A DNA stretch of 43,296 nucleotides from a virus, in IMG/VR virus record IMGVR_UViG_3300045988_135711. The stretch is one strand, 5' to 3'. Both the position numbers and the translations under genes were made by a program. Of the stretch, positions 1 to 43,296 are shown in pieces; position 1 is the stretch's first letter; every line of letters begins with the position of its first letter. The notes beneath the pieces were generated by a model that had not been told where the DNA came from, made no database searches, and worked only from the letters and a program-made list of their open reading frames with translations.

Positions 1-55
1 ACACAAATGCCAAATTGGTTTTTAGAACGGTGCAGTATCGGTAAATCGGGCGGGG
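1..55. repeat. 55-bp terminal direct repeat, identical to 43242-43296; overlap of a circular assembly
   Basis: acacaaatgccaaattggtttttagaacggtgcagtatcggtaaatcgggcgggg occurs at both ends of the window. Confidence 0.95.
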
Positions 56-550: not shown

Positions 551-577
551 TTCATTCCCTTATATTCAAATTGAAAC

Positions 578-658
578 TTTGATACCCAGTATTCGATTTT
601 TGGTTTTTGATACCCGATTTCGAAAACTGGTTTTTTGATTATTAAATTCGAAATTTCG
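578..658. repeat. direct repeats TTTGATACCC (578-587 and 606-615; degenerate copy 633-643) interleaved with TTCGA(A/T) motifs
   Basis: Read directly from the sequence, immediately downstream of the HNH stop. Repeat spacing is 28 bp. Confidence 0.6.
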
Positions 659-868
659 TTTTTACACAAAAAAAGAACGAATAAATAAAACTTAACTAAT
701 GCCATAAAAAAACAAAATACAAAACACAACAAGTGAAAACGGAATAGAAAAATTAATCAAAATAACAATATCTATAACAAACAAACATGCGGTGGACGAT
801 GAACCAAATCGTTCGAAATGACGTATTTCAGTATGATTGACCGCTTGCTTACTGATCATATAATTGTT

Positions 869-1005
869 TACGGTACTATGTGGACATAGAATAGGAACGA
901 TTTTCGAGAGTGATAGACACTGAATAAAAGTATAGTTGATTGAATAAATGGTCTGAATCCTTTCGAGAATGATTGCTATTGCAGGTTCGATTCCTGCTGT
1001 CGTAT
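869..1005 (+). ncRNA. tRNA-like four-way junction RNA element; not a canonical tRNA
   Basis: T arm gcagg-TTCGATT-cctgc (981-997). Acceptor pairing tacggta (869-875) with tgtcgta (998-1004). Hairpin ctatg-UGGA-catag (876-889). Long irregular arm 890-910 paired with 960-980. Confidence 0.4.
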
Positions 1006-1833
1006 TAAACCTAGATAAGCCTTTCATAGAACACATAGAGGTTAACCTTTCACCCTCATCTTTCTTTCCCCTTCCTTCACTAACTTATCTAGGTTTTCTA
1101 TTTTTAAATAAATAAAAAAGATTGCTCTAAACTTTCGTTTAAAACAATCTAAACCTCTTATTTAATTCAATTCTATAAAATCCTAAACAAAACACATAAA
1201 TATATACTTATACATCCACTCTTTTAAAAAAATAGTGGTGGTAGTCATATATGCCCGCCGAGTTATATAAAAAACGTTAATAAGGCGAGAAAAAAAGTAA
1301 AAAAAGTCATTTCGGACAAATTATCGGAAAAAGGGACAAAGTCCGGGTGTTTACATTTTTCATGAAAACTGTTTTCATAAAGGATTTTCAAAGAACAACG
1401 GTTTTAATATCGTAAATATTTAAATATTCGCCCTTAACCTAACATTAAATTTTTAGTTTGTCAATAGGTCGAAAAATCGGAAAAATTCAAGCGGTGAGGG
1501 CGGTTTATAGATTCGCTATTTATGTATTTGTATTTAGCGCTGTATGCTTGTGGATTTGAAACAGAATATAAAAACAAGCCCTTTCTTTTAAAAACGCTGT
1601 AAGGGGCTTTAATTCGCAAAATACAAAAGGGTGCGAAAATGTAAATATTTTAAAATTTAATAATTAGGTCGCTTGATTTGTTTTTGTGTTTTTGAATCCA
1701 CGCAAACAAAAACAGCGTACATACATACGCTTATAATAGCAGATATCAAAATACACTAAAATTAATAGAATCGCTTAAATCGCAAATATGGACGAATTAG
1801 GAAGGGTATGTTTTTAGCAGCAGGATCTAAAAA

Positions 1834-4456: not shown

Positions 4457-4951
4457 ATGGCAAACCTTGCTAGACCAATATCTTTAAGCGTTATTGAAGG
4501 TAAAAAACAGAAGCGAAGTAATGAAGAAATTAGGCGCAGAAAAGAGAACGAAAAAGCACTAAAAGTTGCAAAAGATAAGCTAAAACCACCTAGTTGGTTA
4601 GGTAAAATTGCAAAAAAAGAGTTTAAGTACATTGTGGATGAAACGCAGTCTATCGAATTACTAACTAATTTAGATGTTCATACATTAGCAGTGTATTCAA
4701 ACGTTTATGAACAGTATGTAATCTGTAACCAACGTTTGTTGGAAGATGGAATCATTGTAGAAGCAAACAAAGCATCGGAAACAGTGACAGCTGCACATCC
4801 ACTATTCGTAAAGCAAGCCCAATTATTCGACCAATTACGAAAGATGCAAACTGATCTCGGTTTGTCTCCATCGTCTAGGGCAAAACTAGCATTGCATGCA
4901 GCTTTAACATCGGACAAATCAAAGGAAGAAGAGGAGTTCGATAACGTATGA
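4457..4951 (+). CDS. terS: terminase small subunit (P27 family-like)
   Basis: N-terminus MANLARPISLSVIEGKKQKRSNEEIRRRKENE; size and position directly upstream of and overlapping terL. Confidence 0.85.
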   Translation: MANLARPISLSVIEGKKQKRSNEEIRRRKENEKALKVAKDKLKPPSWLGKIAKKEFKYIVDETQSIELLTNLDVHTLAVYSNVYEQYVICNQRLLEDGIIVEANKASETVTAAHPLFVKQAQLFDQLRKMQTDLGLSPSSRAKLALHAALTSDKSKEEEEFDNV

Positions 4952-23922: not shown

Positions 23923-24984
23923 TTAAAAAATATTCCGAATAACTTCGTTTTCTTCCGCTTCTTTTTCCTTTAAAATATGAGCATAAGTTTGTAGTGTAAT
24001 TGTGGGGTCAGCGTGACCTAATCGTTTACTAACTGTTAATAATTGGATACCTTTAGAAAGTAAAATACTTGCGTGAGTGTGTCTTAATGCGTGGAAGGTT
24101 ATTTTCTTATGAACACCCGCTCTAGTTAACGCTCTTGATAAAGCGTAATTCACAGAGTTATTACTCATAACTGGAAACAAACGTTCACCATTTCTGGGGA
24201 TTAGTTTTAAAATTTCTAACAACTTATCCGATACTGCAATTACACGTTTGGCATTTCTTGTTTTTCCGTCTGTAAATTCTTGCGTGAAACGATAATCAAA
24301 ACCACGATCTATTTTAATTGTTTTATTTTTGAAGTTTATACAATCCCACGTTAATCCTAAACATTCTCCAAAACGCATTCCAGTATACATAGAAAGCAGC
24401 ATAACATATCGTGTGGTATAGCTAGGTTGCAACCCTTCTAATAAAGCACGCTCTAAAGCATTAAATTCTTCATAGTTTAAATATTTAATATCTTCATTCT
24501 TTGTTAAGTGTTCTTGTCCTTTAACAACAGCTCCTTTTGTAGGGTCGTGCATGATGATTTTAGACTGGATTGCATATTCCATTGTGGCACGTACAGTTTC
24601 GTGGTATTTTTTTACTGTTCCTTTCGCTCTTGAATCAGCAAGAGTGTTTAAAAAGTTTTGGTATTTCTCTAATGTAATTTCTTTTAACGGTATATTAAAT
24701 TCATCTTTAACATATTTTATAATCGTCATATAACGAGCCTTAGTAACTTGCGTTATTGTTCCTTCTTTGAATAAGTCAAACCATTTTTTCATTAAATTTC
24801 CTAGTAATACTTTGTCTTTTTCAAACTTCTTACCAACTAGCAATTCGTTTTCTTTTAACACGGATGCATCCTTTGCTTCCGCTTTGGTTCTAAATCCGCT
24901 TTGAGATACGTATTTACGCTTTCCGTTATCGTAGTAATAAACACGGTAAGACCACGTTTTTCCTCTTTTCGTAATGCTTGCCAT
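23923..24984 (-). CDS. int: tyrosine integrase
   Basis: 353 aa. N-terminal arm-binding-like KTWSYRVYY; catalytic R...HALRHTH...Y region. Confidence 0.92.
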   Translation of the reverse strand: MASITKRGKTWSYRVYYYDNGKRKYVSQSGFRTKAEAKDASVLKENELLVGKKFEKDKVLLGNLMKKWFDLFKEGTITQVTKARYMTIIKYVKDEFNIPLKEITLEKYQNFLNTLADSRAKGTVKKYHETVRATMEYAIQSKIIMHDPTKGAVVKGQEHLTKNEDIKYLNYEEFNALERALLEGLQPSYTTRYVMLLSMYTGMRFGECLGLTWDCINFKNKTIKIDRGFDYRFTQEFTDGKTRNAKRVIAVSDKLLEILKLIPRNGERLFPVMSNNSVNYALSRALTRAGVHKKITFHALRHTHASILLSKGIQLLTVSKRLGHADPTITLQTYAHILKEKEAEENEVIRNIF

Positions 24985-41602: not shown

Positions 41603-41833
41603 ATGCTCACTTTATACTCAAAACCAAATTGCATGCAGTGCAAGTTTACAAAAGAATATTTACTAGATCATAACATCGAATATAAAGAAATTAATGTCAT
41701 GGAAGATGTAGAAAAATTAGAATACATCAAAAACGAACTAGGGTATCAAACGTTACCCGTGATTGAAACTGATACAGGGAATTCGTGGTTCGGATTCCGA
41801 CCCGATTTACTGGAGGGGTTGAATGGAGAATAA
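41603..41833 (+). CDS. nrdH: NrdH-like glutaredoxin
   Basis: LYSKPNCMQCKFTKEYL has the CxxC thioredoxin-fold pattern; 76 aa. Confidence 0.85.
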   Translation: MLTLYSKPNCMQCKFTKEYLLDHNIEYKEINVMEDVEKLEYIKNELGYQTLPVIETDTGNSWFGFRPDLLEGLNGE

Positions 41834-42227
41834 TTATCATTTAAAGCAGATTCGGTTAATTGATAAAGAGATTAATCAAATGCTAAATGAATTAGAACGC
41901 ATTCAATGTTCATTGATGCGCAGTCCACAATTAAAGCAAGTAAGTGTGCAGGAATCAAAAGTTGGATTGAAGGACGATGTGTATATCAAGATGATTGAAT
42001 ACAATGATAAGATTAATCAGAAAGTGGATGAATTAATCGATACGAAAAAGAAAGTATTCGATACAATCGAACAAATCAAAGACCATGAACAACGATTGAT
42101 TTTAAAAATGCGCTATGTGGATTGTGAAAAATGGGAAGACATCGAAGAGGAATTGCATGTATCGAAAAATACGATGCATAGAATCCACAGAAAAGCATTA
42201 AAAGAATTTAATTCATTATGGTACTAA
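41823..42227 (+). CDS. ArpU/RinA-like late-gene transcriptional activator (sigma region-4-like)
   Basis: C-terminal ILKMRYVDCEKWEDIEEELHVSKNTMHRIHRKALKEF; last early gene before the packaging region. Confidence 0.8.
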   Translation: MENNYHLKQIRLIDKEINQMLNELERIQCSLMRSPQLKQVSVQESKVGLKDDVYIKMIEYNDKINQKVDELIDTKKKVFDTIEQIKDHEQRLILKMRYVDCEKWEDIEEELHVSKNTMHRIHRKALKEFNSLWY

Positions 42228-43040
42228 TTGCGCTAGAATGTGACTATATATGTGTGGTAATGTTATTGTGCAATAAATGGCTATGGGGCAACTCATAGCC
42301 TATACATACTAATCGGCTTAGCGATATAATCCTTGGTGACAAGGGAAAGTTACTCTTTTATATGTCAAGAGTAGCGGTGGTAAAATACCAATCTAAGCAA
42401 CGTGGGTATTAATGGAATAAGAAATTGTTCCAGCTTCGAAAACTATCATTTTTAGGCAGAGTCAATCGATGAGCCAATGCAGTCATGCGTTAATGAATGG
42501 TTGAAGAAGTGATATGACACAAGGTAATAGCGTGAGGGTAGCTCTAAGCGCAACTACCATGAATAGATTTCTTGAGGTGGACAACCTTGTAAATCTATTT
42601 GAGTGAAGAACGATGCTAACGTTCATGCATAACAAGCAGGCGCTGGGGATTTTGTTATTCAAAAGATAACGAACTCTAAGGCAATGCGTGTCTGTGACAA
42701 TATAAATATGGGATAATGACGATTTAAAACTTATTAGCAAAATAAGCAGATTGGATTAAAGCAAAAGTCATTGCCCGTTATAAACGATAGTGCCTTTTTG
42801 TAGGATTGACCTACACACGAAACCTTCGCAAGAGGAATCGTGAAGTCGAAAAGTAAAGCAGTTTAGACCGTAGCTAGGTTTTTATTAATTGAAAGACGGC
42901 TTAGTAGTTTATAACGATACGAGTAGTTAGCGATACTAACTAGGCATGAGTGTTACGTGTAGGGATATGCGTGGAAACGAAACTAAAACATAAGGTTTCA
43001 AAAGACACTCAAACGTTACCTGTATTCTCAAGGTGTTAAA

Positions 43041-43093
43041 TGCTGTACCCGTGGAAGGGCGTTTATGTTAAGGTTCGATTCCTTATGCAGCAG
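43041..43093 (+). ncRNA. truncated tRNA-like module: acceptor stem, short UGGA-loop hairpin and canonical T arm; no anticodon arm
   Basis: tgctgta (43041-47) pairs with tgcagca (43086-92). ccc-GUGGAA-ggg (43048-59). taagg-TTCGATT-cctta (43069-85). Confidence 0.5.
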
Positions 43094-43130
43094 TTTTGAT
43101 TGCGGTATATATCTAAGGAGTATACCTTTA

Positions 43131-43162
43131 CCTCTCATGTTTATTGCATGAGGGGTATTTTT
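43131..43162 (+). terminator. intrinsic terminator closing the ncRNA unit
   Basis: 9-bp stem cctctcatg/catgagggg with a 7-nt loop, then taTTTTTa. Confidence 0.8.
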
Positions 43163-43187
43163 ATACATAAAAACGAAAGGAGCAGTT

Positions 43188-43296
43188 ATGGAATATAAAA
43201 CAACGATTGTACGTAGGGCGGTACAGTTCACTGGTGATTTAACACAAATGCCAAATTGGTTTTTAGAACGGTGCAGTATCGGTAAATCGGGCGGGG
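43188..43296 (+). CDS. hypothetical protein, N-terminal part of the junction-spanning ORF (continues at position 56 of the window)
   Basis: ATG at 43188 with RBS aaaggag 6 nt upstream, in frame with 7..213. Confidence 0.6.
   Translation, partial: MEYKTTIVRRAVQFTGDLTQMPNWFLERCSIGKSGG
43242..43296. repeat. 55-bp terminal direct repeat, a copy of 1-55
   Basis: Exact identity with the start of the window. Confidence 0.95.

What the first reader, a model, noticed from the sequence alone, without database searches (positions are those of the whole stretch)
43041..43093. Truncated tRNA-like module (acceptor plus T arm, no anticodon arm) at the 3' end of the candidate ncRNA
The sequence taagg-TTCGATT-cctta (43069-43085) is a textbook T arm with a GGTTCGATTCC core. 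It is followed directly by tgcagca (43086-43092). That segment pairs over 7 bp, including one G-U, with tgctgta (43041-43047), as a tRNA acceptor stem would. The 5' acceptor strand runs straight into a small hairpin, ccc-GUGGAA-ggg. Its loop carries the GG expected of a D-loop that docks on the T loop. Only a 9-nt linker replaces the anticodon arm, so the element is 52-53 nt and cannot decode. tRNA-like ends are known to recruit RNase P, RNase Z or the CCA-adding enzyme. Examples are the tmRNA tRNA-like domain, bacterial Y-RNA tRNA-like domains, and the mascRNA at the 3' end of MALAT1. A processing or end-protection signal for the upstream large RNA is therefore a plausible role. A decoy for tRNA-targeting host factors is another possibility.
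Basis: partly seen in the sequence, partly recalled or inferred. Interest (0 to 1): 0.7.

Follow-up and report, generated by a model that had tools for sequence, protein, structure and literature searches.

The report
Anticodon-less tRNA-like cassette after GOLLD RNA
A 53-base piece of a phage genome keeps only the two tRNA parts that tRNA-trimming enzymes recognise, and it sits exactly where related phages carry a full tRNA, right after the giant GOLLD RNA; it is most likely a cutting signal that frees that RNA's end, though this has not been tested.

Summary
43041-43093 has a canonical T arm (TAAGG-TTCGATT-CCTTA) abutted by a 7-bp closing helix and has no anticodon arm. ARAGORN and Rfam's tRNA model do not call it.

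The "candidate ncRNA" upstream is GOLLD (RF02032, 42635-43034, 230 bits). Its whole 767-nt unit is 42273-43039.

In about 150 Lactobacillales-phage GOLLD loci, a tRNA or a non-cloverleaf "acceptor + T arm" element starts 2-12 nt after GOLLD. Only about 15% are callable tRNAs. At least five other non-cloverleaf classes keep a perfect 7-bp acceptor.

Strict T arms cluster at both GOLLD boundaries. An upstream-flank family shows real covariation of the 12-bp acceptor/T minihelix while its body varies from 30 to 57 nt.

Sister phages bound the window element as a discrete cassette (edges 43040/41 and 43092/93). One keeps it without GOLLD.

Best reading (about 0.5): a tRNA-derived minihelix kept as an RNase P/RNase Z punctuation signal. 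Cleavage is inferred, not shown.

Caveats:
- The window-type family is shallow, with no double-sided covariation.
- Thermodynamic folding prefers another structure.
- The abundant mitis class has a degraded acceptor.
- Some GOLLDs have no such element.

A second tRNA-like RNA (869-1005) lies 1.2 kb downstream.

The parts
42273..43034 (+). GOLLD RNA: variable 5' domain about 42273-42634 and conserved 3' domain 42635-43034
   Evidence: Rfam RF02032 hit at 42635-43034, 230.4 bits, E = 3e-64, full model. The 5' limit comes from the L010 indel, which removes exactly 42273-43039.
43035..43040 (+). 6-nt spacer GTTAAA between the last GOLLD helix and the tRNA-like element. A43040 is position -1, which is G in several sister phages.
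   Evidence: In other classes the spacer is 2-12 nt.
43041..43047 (+). TLS1 5' acceptor strand TGCTGTA
   Evidence: Pairs 7/7 with 43086-43092. Invariant in 12 copies. Homology with the GOLLD-less phage L010 resumes at 43040.
43048..43059 (+). Small hairpin CCC-GTGGAA-GGG (D-loop-like GG). The stem is not conserved.
   Evidence: CCC becomes CC in L010 and L150, and GTGG becomes GCGG in L150. TLS2 has the analogous CTAT-GTGGAC-ATAG directly after its acceptor.
43060..43068 (+). 9-nt linker CGTTTATGT in place of the anticodon arm and variable loop. This is the most variable part of the element.
   Evidence: Variants are CATTTATGT and CATATTGTGT (10 nt).
43069..43085 (+). T arm: stem TAAGG/CCTTA, loop TTCGATT (canonical T54-T55-C56-R57-A58, with a G53-C61 closing pair)
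   Evidence: Invariant in 12 copies.
43086..43093 (+). TLS1 3' acceptor strand TGCAGCA plus discriminator G43093. CCA is not encoded and the trailer starts TTTT.
   Evidence: L166 has G43087 to A, turning U.G into U-A. L171 and L172 share homology only from 43093 onward.
43094..43127 (+). Conserved trailer block TTTTGATTGC + hairpin GGTATA(43104-43109)-TATCTAAGGAG-TATACC(43121-43126). It is a separate element, also found without TLS1 or GOLLD.
   Evidence: 97-100% identical in all sister phages. Present in L171 and L172 after an unrelated terminator.
43129..43157 (+). Intrinsic terminator hairpin followed by a T run. Probable end of the GOLLD-TLS1 primary transcript.
   Evidence: Terminator scan found 12 pairs and the tail TTTTTATACA. 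The stem covaries among sister phages.
869..1005 (+). TLS2, a second non-decoding tRNA-like RNA. Parts: acceptor TACGGTA (869-875) / TGTCGTA (998-1004); abutting hairpin CTAT-GTGGAC-ATAG (876-889); an arm of about 91 nt in place of the anticodon arm (890-980); T arm GCAGG-TTCGATT-CCTGC (981-997); discriminator T1005.
   Evidence: RNAalifold de novo gives the four-way tRNA-like junction with two double-sided compensatory pairs. 99.3% of cells are paired against at most 55% in slid controls. Not called by ARAGORN or Rfam.

Best explanation
43041-43093 is a tRNA-derived 'minihelix' cassette. A 7-bp acceptor stem stacks on a canonical T arm, a GG-containing loop may dock on the T loop, and a 9-nt linker replaces the anticodon arm.

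It is co-transcribed with GOLLD: the spacer is 6 nt, no promoter lies between them, and a terminator follows at 43129-43157. It occupies the slot that full tRNAs occupy after GOLLD in sister phages.

Proposed mechanism (inferred):
1. Host RNase P recognises the acceptor/T-arm stack and cuts between 43040 and 43041, creating the mature GOLLD 3' end.
2. RNase Z cuts after G43093 (the trailer is CCA-less and starts with U), separating the element from the downstream trailer and terminator.
3. A small RNA of about 53 nt is released that can receive CCA.

This is tRNA punctuation of a phage ncRNA transcript, in which decoding is dispensable and only the parts needed by the processing enzymes are kept.

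Shown: the anatomy, positional equivalence with tRNAs, discreteness of the cassette, the clustering of T arms at both GOLLD boundaries in related phages, and structural selection on the minihelix in a sister family.

Inferred: transcription through the element, and every cleavage step.
For: 1. Positional homology. In streptococcal phages a tRNA (Ser-GCU, Phe, Trp, or a UUA-anticodon tRNA) starts 7-10 nt after the Rfam GOLLD end.

2. Census of 153 GOLLD 3' ends (102 unique downstream sequences). Essentially all have a T arm within 32-77 nt. Only 14 of the unique sequences (about 15% of loci) are callable tRNAs at that slot.

3. Fifteen of 33 distinct minihelices have a 7/7 acceptor (null probability 0.02 each). 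These include five non-cloverleaf classes: window type (52-53 nt), L069/L132 (58-59 nt, a tRNA-Phe lacking only the anticodon arm), L161 (65 nt), L034 (87 nt) and L005 type (112 nt).

4. Repeated independent loss of the anticodon region, including two different 22-nt deletions within the mitis class.

5. Strict T arms cluster at both GOLLD boundaries: 0 to +100 in 153 loci, and -1100 to -700 in 94 of 156 loci. Upstream, 77 of 101 loci have a 7/7 acceptor and only 23 are callable tRNAs.

6. The upstream GGCGRYG family is 99.4% paired, has 3 pairs changed on both sides, and no shuffle out of 500 reaches its covariation, while its body varies from 30 to 57 nt.

7. Cassette edges coincide with the predicted tRNA-like ends: 43040/41 (L010) and 43092/93 (L171 and L172).

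8. TLS1 stays 93-100% identical where flanking genes are 72-85% identical. Its single stem substitution preserves pairing.

9. Trailers are almost always discriminator + TT with no encoded CCA, as for the neighbouring true tRNAs.

10. A 7-bp acceptor is described as a major RNase P determinant, and a bacterial tRNA-like module that has one is cleaved by RNase P and receives CCA in vivo (PMC4201824).

11. From own knowledge: acceptor + T-arm minihelices suffice for RNase P (McClain, Guerrier-Takada and Altman 1987), for tRNase Z and for the CCA-adding enzyme.
Against: - No transcript-end or cleavage data exist for any of these loci.
- Within the window-type family (12 copies, 6 module haplotypes) there are no double-sided compensatory changes. 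An alternative hairpin (43086-43094 with 43099-43107) is equally compatible with the substitutions.
- RNAalifold and MFE folding prefer a non-tRNA fold: -25.2 against -19.2 kcal/mol.
- The most abundant class (mitis/pneumococcal phages) keeps the T arm, but its acceptor has only 4-6/7 gapless pairs, which is chance level. A few loci have a broken 3' strand (L033 type).
- Environmental GOLLDs L168 and L169 run straight into a terminator, and L170 into an ORF. The element is therefore not a general requirement of GOLLD.
- L010 keeps TLS1 at about 99% without GOLLD, so its value cannot be only to make a GOLLD end.
- U1-A72 and A/G at position -1 are not the preferred RNase P context (own knowledge).
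- The window's GOLLD has no upstream tRNA-like flank.
Confidence: 0.5

Rival explanations
1. The released anticodon-less mini-tRNA is itself the functional product. It would be a tRNA mimic that titrates or recruits something that reads the acceptor/T-arm 'elbow': a host anti-phage nuclease or modification enzyme, the CCA-adding enzyme, EF-Tu, the ribosome, or a phage factor. On this reading it sits next to GOLLD only because that locus is the phage's tRNA-type expression site. RNase P/Z processing would still occur, but as maturation of the mimic rather than for GOLLD's sake.
For: - L010 retains the cassette at about 99% identity after losing all of GOLLD, while flanking genes are 79-95% identical.
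- The same phage lineage carries a second, structurally well-supported non-decoding tRNA-like RNA (TLS2) that is not next to GOLLD.
- In the mitis class the T arm is the most conserved part while the acceptor is imperfect. This hints that the elbow matters more than the cleavage site.
Against: - No candidate partner is encoded nearby. The neighbours are a DUF1492/sigma-like regulator, an HNH endonuclease and terminase.
- Without an anticodon arm it cannot decoy anticodon nucleases.
- There is no G3.U70 or other minihelix aminoacylation identity (own knowledge).
- The tight clustering of such elements at both GOLLD boundaries is not explained by a stand-alone role.
Confidence: 0.2
2. A neutral relic. 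A phage tRNA gene that followed GOLLD lost its anticodon arm by deletion and has not yet decayed further. Its conservation reflects recent common ancestry or hitch-hiking with the strongly selected GOLLD and the downstream regulatory block.
For: - The window-type family is shallow, and the whole 42273-43127 stretch is 93-100% identical.
- There are no compensatory double changes.
- Obvious relics do exist in related loci: the L001 upstream flank keeps only the T arm and 3' strand, and L033-type loci have a broken 3' strand.
- The mitis acceptor pairs at chance level.
Against: - In the same copies the linker and hairpin region (22 nt) has about 5 variable columns including indels. The acceptor and T arm (31 nt) have one variable column, and that change preserves pairing.
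- The body is not a simple deletion product of a cloverleaf: nucleotides 8-9 are missing and the D stem is 3 bp.
- At least five independent non-cloverleaf classes keep a perfect 7-bp acceptor and T arm.
- A sister family shows true covariation of the minihelix with freely varying bodies.
- The cassette survives GOLLD loss.
Confidence: 0.2
3. The tRNA-like fold does not form. The segment would be part of a different RNA structure: a 5' hairpin of spacer and 5' strand with GGG and linker, and a hairpin of the 3' strand with the trailer. That structure would belong to the regulatory region (conserved block and terminator) ahead of the late/packaging genes, for example an attenuator or antitermination element.
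For: - The MFE of the 93-141-nt context and the RNAalifold consensus choose this fold.
- All one-sided substitutions are compatible with it.
- In L005-type elements the near-identical inner T arm is followed by a covarying hairpin rather than an acceptor.
Against: - The T arm matches the tRNA consensus at every conserved position, and the 7-bp helix abuts it exactly as in tRNA.
- The trailer block exists without TLS1 in L171 and L172, and TLS1's upstream context is replaced in L010. The partners of the alternative helices are therefore not inherited together.
- RNAalifold's covariation term is only -0.54.
- Thermodynamic prediction often misses tRNA folds (own knowledge).
- TLS2, with the same layout, is recovered de novo as tRNA-like.
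Confidence: 0.07
4. A DNA-level site. The tRNA 3' half (T arm and acceptor strand) would serve as an attachment or recombination core (attP-like), or as a hotspot for module exchange, with no RNA role.
For: - Cassette edges coincide with mosaic junctions.
- tRNA 3' halves are classic integration cores (own knowledge).
Against: - The tyrosine integrase is at 23923-24984, about 19 kb away, with no T-arm motif near it.
- A complementary 5' strand is present and conserved, which a DNA core does not need.
- The element lies inside a transcription unit between GOLLD and a terminator.
Confidence: 0.03

Closest known systems
tRNA genes and pseudo-tRNAs associated with GOLLD RNA (Rfam RF02032; Kretsch et al. 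2025, PMC12286853; Behra et al. 2019, PMC6582537; review PMC12990946)
   Same: GOLLD is known to lie near tRNA islands. Some GOLLDs carry a tRNA or a predicted pseudo-tRNA in their variable linker. The window element sits in the slot where sister phages have tRNA-Ser, Phe or Trp directly after GOLLD.
   Different: - The papers I could reach describe proximity and embedded tRNAs. They do not describe a fixed slot 2-12 nt from the GOLLD 3' end, flanking of both ends, or anticodon-less acceptor + T-arm elements.
- Here the element cannot decode and is not detected by tRNA finders.
- The original GOLLD description (Weinberg et al. 2009) and Morgado et al. 2020 were not readable here, so prior mention cannot be excluded.
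MALAT1-mascRNA / MEN-beta tRNA-like 3'-end processing module (vertebrates)
   Same: A tRNA-like structure sits immediately 3' of a long ncRNA. In the known system RNase P cleavage creates the ncRNA 3' end, and RNase Z and the CCA-adding enzyme mature the small RNA (own knowledge). The position and the predicted enzymology are the same.
   Different: - That system is eukaryotic.
- mascRNA keeps a cloverleaf with a reduced anticodon stem.
- The MALAT1 end is then protected by a triple helix.
- Here the anticodon arm is absent altogether, and cleavage is untested.
Mitochondrial 'tRNA punctuation' of polycistronic transcripts
   Same: tRNAs and degenerate tRNA-like structures flank other RNAs and act as RNase P/Z cut sites (own knowledge). 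In 94 of 156 of the related GOLLD loci surveyed (not the window itself) T arms lie at both GOLLD boundaries.
   Different: This is a bacteriophage context. Many of the punctuating elements have lost decoding capacity entirely. The window's own GOLLD has only the 3' element.
RNase P minihelix model substrates, and the tRNA-like module of M. smegmatis YrlA (PMC4201824)
   Same: A 7-bp acceptor stacked on a T stem-loop is the recognised unit. YrlA's module with a 7-bp acceptor is cleaved by RNase P and gains CCA in vivo.
   Different: YrlA's tRNA-like domain is internal to a Y RNA that binds Ro60/Rsr. No rsr gene or YrlA Rfam hit is present here. Minihelices are laboratory constructs rather than natural genes.
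tmRNA tRNA-like domain
   Same: An acceptor stem, a T arm and a D-loop analogue without a D stem, with no anticodon.
   Different: There is no mRNA-like domain, tag reading frame or pseudoknots. ARAGORN finds no tmRNA. There is no G3.U70 alanine identity: the 3-70 pair is C-G.

Membership tests
Canonical tRNA (Rfam RF00005 / ARAGORN) | Cloverleaf with a 5-bp anticodon stem and 7-nt anticodon loop | tested here: not met
   Only 9 nt lie between the small hairpin and the T arm. ARAGORN finds 0 genes. There is no RF00005 hit at E <= 10.
Canonical tRNA (Rfam RF00005 / ARAGORN) | T arm with a 5-bp stem, a G53-C61 pair and the T-loop TTCRANY | tested here: met
   TAAGG-TTCGATT-CCTTA at 43069-43085.
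Canonical tRNA (Rfam RF00005 / ARAGORN) | 7-bp acceptor stem whose 3' strand abuts the T stem, followed by a discriminator | tested here: met
   43041-47 pairs with 43086-92, 7/7 including one G.U, followed by G43093.
Canonical tRNA (Rfam RF00005 / ARAGORN) | D arm (nucleotides 8-9, a 3-4-bp stem, a loop with G18 G19) | tested here: inconclusive
   The GG is invariant, but there are no nucleotides 8-9 and the CCC/GGG stem drops to 2 bp in L010 and L150.
GOLLD RNA (RF02032) | The segment is covered by the family model, or is inseparable from it | tested here: not met
   The model ends at 43034. L010 lacks GOLLD but keeps the element. L168-L170 have GOLLD without any such element.
RNase P/RNase Z processing tRNA-like element (mascRNA type, tRNA punctuation) | A tRNA-like structure directly adjoining the end of another functional RNA within one transcript | tested here: met
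   There are 6 nt after GOLLD. The only promoter-like hit on the + strand between the GOLLD 5' limit and the element lies at 42301-42386, inside the GOLLD 5' domain, and the terminator is at 43129-43157. Co-transcription is inferred.
RNase P/RNase Z processing tRNA-like element (mascRNA type, tRNA punctuation) | Endonucleolytic cleavage at the 5' end (RNase P) and after the discriminator (RNase Z), followed by CCA addition | not testable with these tools
   No transcriptome or enzymology data are available. The only indirect support is the CCA-less 'N-TT' trailer shared with the neighbouring true tRNAs.
RNase P/RNase Z processing tRNA-like element (mascRNA type, tRNA punctuation) | Evolutionary conservation of the acceptor/T-arm pairing | tested here: inconclusive
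   Window-type family: 100% paired, but only one one-sided change. Sister upstream-flank family: clear covariation. Mitis 3' class: the acceptor pairs at chance level.
tmRNA tRNA-like domain | An attached mRNA-like domain with a tag ORF, and the G3.U70 identity pair | tested here: not met
   ARAGORN finds no tmRNA. The 3-70 pair is C-G.
Bacterial Y RNA (YrlA) tRNA-like domain | A Ro60-binding stem and linkage to an rsr gene | tested here: not met
   There is no YrlA or Y RNA Rfam hit in the window. The neighbouring genes are a regulator, an HNH endonuclease and terminase. The window was not searched specifically for rsr.
attP core derived from a tRNA 3' half | Lies next to the integrase, and only the 3' part of the tRNA is present | tested here: not met
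   The integrase is at 23923-24984. No T arm lies near it. A 5' acceptor strand is present.

The most novel reading that the evidence does not exclude
The element is not merely cut off. In Lactobacillales phages the GOLLD monomer would be made with a covalently attached, or tightly co-assembled, anticodon-less tRNA mimic. The 10-14-mer GOLLD nanocage would then display a ring of acceptor/T-arm 'elbows'. These would dock it onto tRNA-binding machinery such as the ribosome, RNase P, the CCA-adding enzyme or EF-Tu, or bait host tRNA-directed defences. The streamlined minihelices would be the functional interface of GOLLD rather than punctuation marks.
Probability: 0.12. Interest if true: 0.85.

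Novelty: new variant of a known kind. Interest (0 to 1): 0.62.

Why it matters
GOLLD is one of the largest bacterial and phage ncRNAs. It forms megadalton RNA-only cages, and its function is still unknown.

In a large phage subgroup GOLLD is bracketed by tRNAs or by stripped-down acceptor + T-arm minihelices, and those minihelices persist and covary after losing every decoding feature. That gives a concrete, testable model for how GOLLD is excised from its transcript: host RNase P and RNase Z.

It also shows that the long-noted 'GOLLD near tRNAs' association is, in these phages, a precise structural linkage and not loose proximity.

The finding adds natural, gene-encoded examples of anticodon-less tRNA-like RNAs of 50-140 nt that standard tRNA finders miss. 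Phage 'tRNA' content and tRNA-mimicry may therefore be under-counted.

If the elements stay attached or act as mimics, they would be a direct clue to what the cages interact with.

Tried and rejected
- **attP/integration core.** Rejected: the integrase is 19 kb away, no T arm lies near it, and a 5' strand is present.
- **tmRNA or Y-RNA domain.** Rejected: no ARAGORN tmRNA and no Rfam hits.
- **preQ1-II, PyrR, L10-leader and SpF11 hits at 43063-43190.** These score 19-21 bits against gathering scores of 44-54, at E = 1-5. I treated them as chance matches driven by the terminator hairpin.
- **Minus-strand ORF 43028..43231 (67 aa) and ORF 692..1036 (114 aa, no Pfam hit) overlapping the two elements.** Treated as spurious.
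- **Linker pairing with the spacer (window MFE).** It depends on bases that differ in L008-type copies, but wobble keeps it possible. It is kept only as a minor rival.
- **Searching for a full-length ancestor tRNA.**
  - The exact T arm + 3' strand occurs in viral contigs only in the four module copies.
  - Baiting with the trailer block found it without any tRNA.
  - The L005-type inner T arm is 23/25 identical to 43067-43091, but it is followed by a hairpin, not closed by an acceptor. The origin remains unresolved.
- **Broad GOLLD pattern scan.** The scan (AAAGCAAAAGTCT...) returned only 3 loci, so the census outside Lactobacillales phages is very thin.
- **Papers not held.** The original GOLLD paper and Morgado et al. 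2020 could not be read.
- **Wrong coordinates in two alignments.** Two alignments (A1, A3) had wrong reverse-strand coordinates for some loci. They were replaced by A2 and A4 (searches replaced).
- **No covariance model built.** The variable bodies make a joint model low in information, and the direct counts answered the question.
Full report
**1. The observation**

The sequence is exactly as described.

| Part | Sequence | Coordinates |
|---|---|---|
| 5' acceptor strand | TGCTGTA | 43041-43047 |
| small hairpin | CCC-GTGGAA-GGG | 43048-43059 |
| linker | 9 nt | 43060-43068 |
| T arm | TAAGG-TTCGATT-CCTTA | 43069-43085 |
| 3' acceptor strand | TGCAGCA | 43086-43092 |
| discriminator | G | 43093 |

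- The 5' and 3' strands pair over 7 bp, with one U.G.
- The T arm is canonical at every conserved tRNA position.
- The 3' strand abuts the T stem with no gap.
- On its own the 53-mer folds with the acceptor helix closed (-15.5 kcal/mol, z = -1.9).
- ARAGORN reports no tRNA or tmRNA in the whole window.
- Rfam's tRNA model gives nothing even at E <= 10.
- A strict T-arm motif is expected about 0.02 times in the window (own estimate). It occurs twice, here and at 981-997.

**2. What lies around it**

- The "candidate ncRNA" is GOLLD: Rfam RF02032 matches 42635-43034 end to end (230 bits). The tRNA-like element (TLS1) starts 6 nt later.
- The window is a circular contig (55-nt terminal overlap) of a temperate siphovirus-like phage.
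- Gene order around the element:
  1. DUF1492/sigma-70-r4 regulator (41823-42227)
  2. GOLLD
  3. TLS1
  4. a conserved 34-nt block containing a hairpin (43094-43127)
  5. an intrinsic terminator (43129-43157)
  6. a small ORF
  7. HNH endonuclease (197-550)
  8. a 1.3-kb ORF-poor stretch
  9. small terminase (4457-4951)
- The integrase (23923-24984) is 19 kb away.

**3. Positional homology with tRNAs**

GenBank streptococcal phages share the GOLLD 3' domain at about 70% identity.

| Locus | What follows GOLLD |
|---|---|
| S. agalactiae phages | tRNA-Ser(GCU) starting 9-10 nt after GOLLD |
| S. uberis phage | tRNA with a UUA anticodon |
| S. suis phage | odd 113-nt tRNA-model hit, then tRNA-Trp |
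| Pneumococcal/oralis phages | T arm, but no callable tRNA |

**4. Census of GOLLD 3' flanks**

- 153 GOLLD 3' ends were located, giving 102 unique downstream sequences.
- Essentially all carry a T arm 32-77 nt from the GOLLD end.
- Only 14 of the unique sequences (about 15% of loci) have an ARAGORN tRNA in that slot.

The rest fall into these classes:

| Class | Size / abundance | Notes |
|---|---|---|
| mitis/pneumococcal long form | about 75 loci | |
| mitis/pneumococcal short form | 37 loci | produced by two different 22-nt deletions of the anticodon-like region |
| window type | 52-53 nt | |
| L069/L132 | 58-59 nt | a tRNA-Phe lacking only its anticodon arm; Rfam tRNA 48 bits, ARAGORN none |
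| L161 | 65 nt | |
| L034 | 87 nt | |
| L005 type | 112 nt | two T arms |

With an objective rule, 15 of 33 distinct acceptor/T-arm units have a 7/7 acceptor (null 0.02 each). This covers all non-mitis classes. The mitis class reaches only 4-6/7 gapless pairs, which is chance level. Trailers are almost always discriminator + TT, with no encoded CCA.

**5. T arms mark both GOLLD boundaries**

Strict T arms in the 1.4 Mb collected cluster at 0 to +100 nt from the GOLLD 3' end (153 loci) and at -1100 to -700 nt (94 of 156 loci). The second cluster is the GOLLD 5' boundary. Few lie elsewhere.

Upstream, 77 of 101 loci have a 7/7 acceptor (null 0.076), and only 23 of those are callable tRNAs.

The main non-cloverleaf upstream family is GGCGRYG - body of 30-57 nt - T arm - CRYCGCC-G-TT. 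It was tested with a 5' anchor that does not depend on the pairing:
- 99.4% of cells are paired, against at most 55% in slid controls.
- Three pairs change on both sides.
- No shuffle out of 500 reaches the observed covariation.

A 12-bp acceptor/T-stem minihelix with a freely varying body is therefore a structurally selected unit next to GOLLD.

Not every GOLLD has one. Environmental L168 and L169 run straight into a terminator, and L170 into an ORF. Some flanking T arms are plain relics: the L001 upstream flank and the L033 type.

**6. The window-type family itself**

Twelve copies were found: the window, four viral contigs, a Carnobacterium MAG and six metagenome contigs. They give six haplotypes of the module.

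- The acceptor and T arm (31 nt) have one variable site. In L166, G43087 becomes A, turning U.G into U-A.
- The 22-nt middle has about five variable columns, including indels.
- Formal counting gives 100% pairing, but only that one one-sided change and no double-sided change.
- An alternative hairpin (43086-43094 with 43099-43107) is equally compatible with the data.
- RNAalifold and MFE folding prefer a non-tRNA fold: -25.2 against -19.2 kcal/mol, with a covariation term of -0.54.

The family is too shallow to settle the fold on its own.

**7. Cassette boundaries**

- L010 is a sister phage lacking exactly 42273-43039, the whole GOLLD. Homology resumes at 43040 at 99%, while the flanks are 79-92% identical.
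- L171 and L172 carry the trailer block and terminator without TLS1 or GOLLD, and homology starts at 43093.

TLS1 is therefore a discrete cassette whose edges coincide with the predicted tRNA-like 5' and 3' ends. The partners of the alternative helices are not co-inherited. GOLLD, TLS1 and the trailer block stay 93-100% identical where neighbouring genes are 72-85% identical.

**8. A second tRNA-like RNA**

TLS2 (869-1005) has these parts:
- acceptor TACGGTA/TGTCGTA, which becomes TACGATA/TATCGTA in L007, L010, L165 and L166 (both G.U pairs become A-U)
- an abutting hairpin CTAT-GTGGAC-ATAG, comparable to CCC-GTGGAA-GGG in TLS1
- an arm of about 91 nt in place of the anticodon arm
- a perfect T arm

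RNAalifold recovers this four-way junction de novo, with two double-sided compensatory pairs. 99.3% of cells are paired, and 1 of 500 shuffles reaches the observed covariation. The shared layout supports the tRNA-like reading of TLS1 by analogy.

**9. Mechanism**

- Best-supported (about 0.5): TLS1 is a tRNA-derived minihelix kept as a punctuation signal.
  - RNase P would cut at 43040/41 to make the GOLLD 3' end.
  - RNase Z would cut after 43093.
  - The 53-nt product could receive CCA.
- Basis:
  - the comparative pattern above
  - the statement that a 7-bp acceptor is a major RNase P determinant
  - the demonstrated cleavage and CCA addition of a bacterial tRNA-like module (PMC4201824)
  - established knowledge that RNase P, RNase Z and the CCA-adding enzyme accept acceptor/T-arm minihelices (own knowledge)
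- All cleavage steps are inferred.
- Rivals:
  - a stand-alone tRNA mimic (0.2), favoured by L010 and TLS2
  - a neutral relic (0.2)
  - an alternative regulatory fold (0.07)
  - a DNA-level site (0.03)

**10. Relation to what is known**

GOLLD's proximity to tRNA islands, and tRNAs or pseudo-tRNAs embedded in its linker, are published. In the searchable library I found no description of any of the following:
- a fixed 3' slot
- two-sided flanking
- anticodon-less minihelices
- RNase P processing of GOLLD

The 2009 description and Morgado et al. 2020 could not be read.

Functionally the closest analogues are MALAT1-mascRNA and mitochondrial tRNA punctuation. Structurally the closest are RNase P minihelix substrates and the tmRNA tRNA-like domain. 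TLS1 is not a member of the tRNA, tmRNA, Y RNA or GOLLD families by their defining features.

**11. Verdict**

The processing role is plausible and now has comparative support, but it is unproven. I rate it a new variant of a known kind, with an interest score of about 0.6.

Noticed in passing
window 869-1005 (+): A second non-decoding tRNA-like RNA (TLS2). It has a 7-bp acceptor, an abutting small hairpin with a GTGGAC loop, an arm of about 91 nt in place of the anticodon arm, and a canonical T arm. It is supported by covariation, is missed by ARAGORN and Rfam, and was found only in the window-type phages.
   Followed up: yes
window 43094-43127 (+): The most conserved block of the region (97-100%): TTTTGATTGC + hairpin GGTATA-TATCTAAGGAG-TATACC, with a Shine-Dalgarno-like AAGGAG in the loop. 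It also occurs in L171 and L172 without TLS1 or GOLLD, always just before a terminator and the first late ORF. It may be a late promoter, regulator site or antitermination element, or a 3'-trailer small RNA.
   Followed up: partly
loci L002-L160, 700-1100 nt upstream of the GOLLD 3' end (e.g. L003 864-925): A family of non-cloverleaf tRNA-like elements of 61-88 nt (GGCGRYG...T arm...CRYCGCC-G-TT) at the 5' boundary of GOLLD in mitis-group phages. The minihelix covaries and the bodies are highly variable.
   Followed up: yes
L010 8935-8968 against window 42273-43039: A sister phage has lost the entire 767-nt GOLLD, replaced by 34 unrelated nt, while keeping the promoter region and TLS1. This gives the GOLLD unit's exact limits.
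   Followed up: yes
L004 1900-1977 (Streptococcus phage Javan636): The tRNA directly after GOLLD has anticodon TTA, which would read the UAA stop codon; ARAGORN labels it 'tRNA-Stop'. A tRNA-Ser also lies within or upstream of the GOLLD 5' part, at 1087-1176.
   Followed up: no
L005 1783-1895 (Streptococcus phage Javan584) and L019, L101: A 112-113-nt element with a perfect outer acceptor and two T arms. The inner arm and its 3' flank are 23/25 identical to window 43067-43091, and it is followed by a covarying 5-bp hairpin (AAGCA/TGCTT, or ACGCA/TGCGT in L101). It may be related to the origin of TLS1.
   Followed up: partly
mitis-class loci, e.g. L038 and L016 against L046 and L072: Two different 22-nt deletions (GGAT|GACGTC and GGATTAAGTC|ACAGG) independently removed the anticodon-like hairpin. 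Both give the same 32-nt distance from the GOLLD end to the T arm.
   Followed up: partly
window 551-663 (+): Direct repeats of a TTTGATACCC...ATTTCGA-like unit lie just after the HNH endonuclease gene, in a 1.3-kb ORF-poor, AT-rich stretch. They may be a packaging (cos/pac) or origin-type site. The repeats are also seen as overlapping BLAST hits in L165 and L166.
   Followed up: no
window 1-55 and 43242-43296: An identical 55-nt terminal overlap. The window is a circularly closed assembly of about 43,241 bp, so features near the two ends are contiguous.
   Followed up: yes
L168 1892-1950, L169, L170: High-scoring environmental GOLLDs (295 bits) are followed directly by an intrinsic terminator or an ORF, with no tRNA-like element. 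The tRNA(-like) bracket is lineage-specific.
   Followed up: partly
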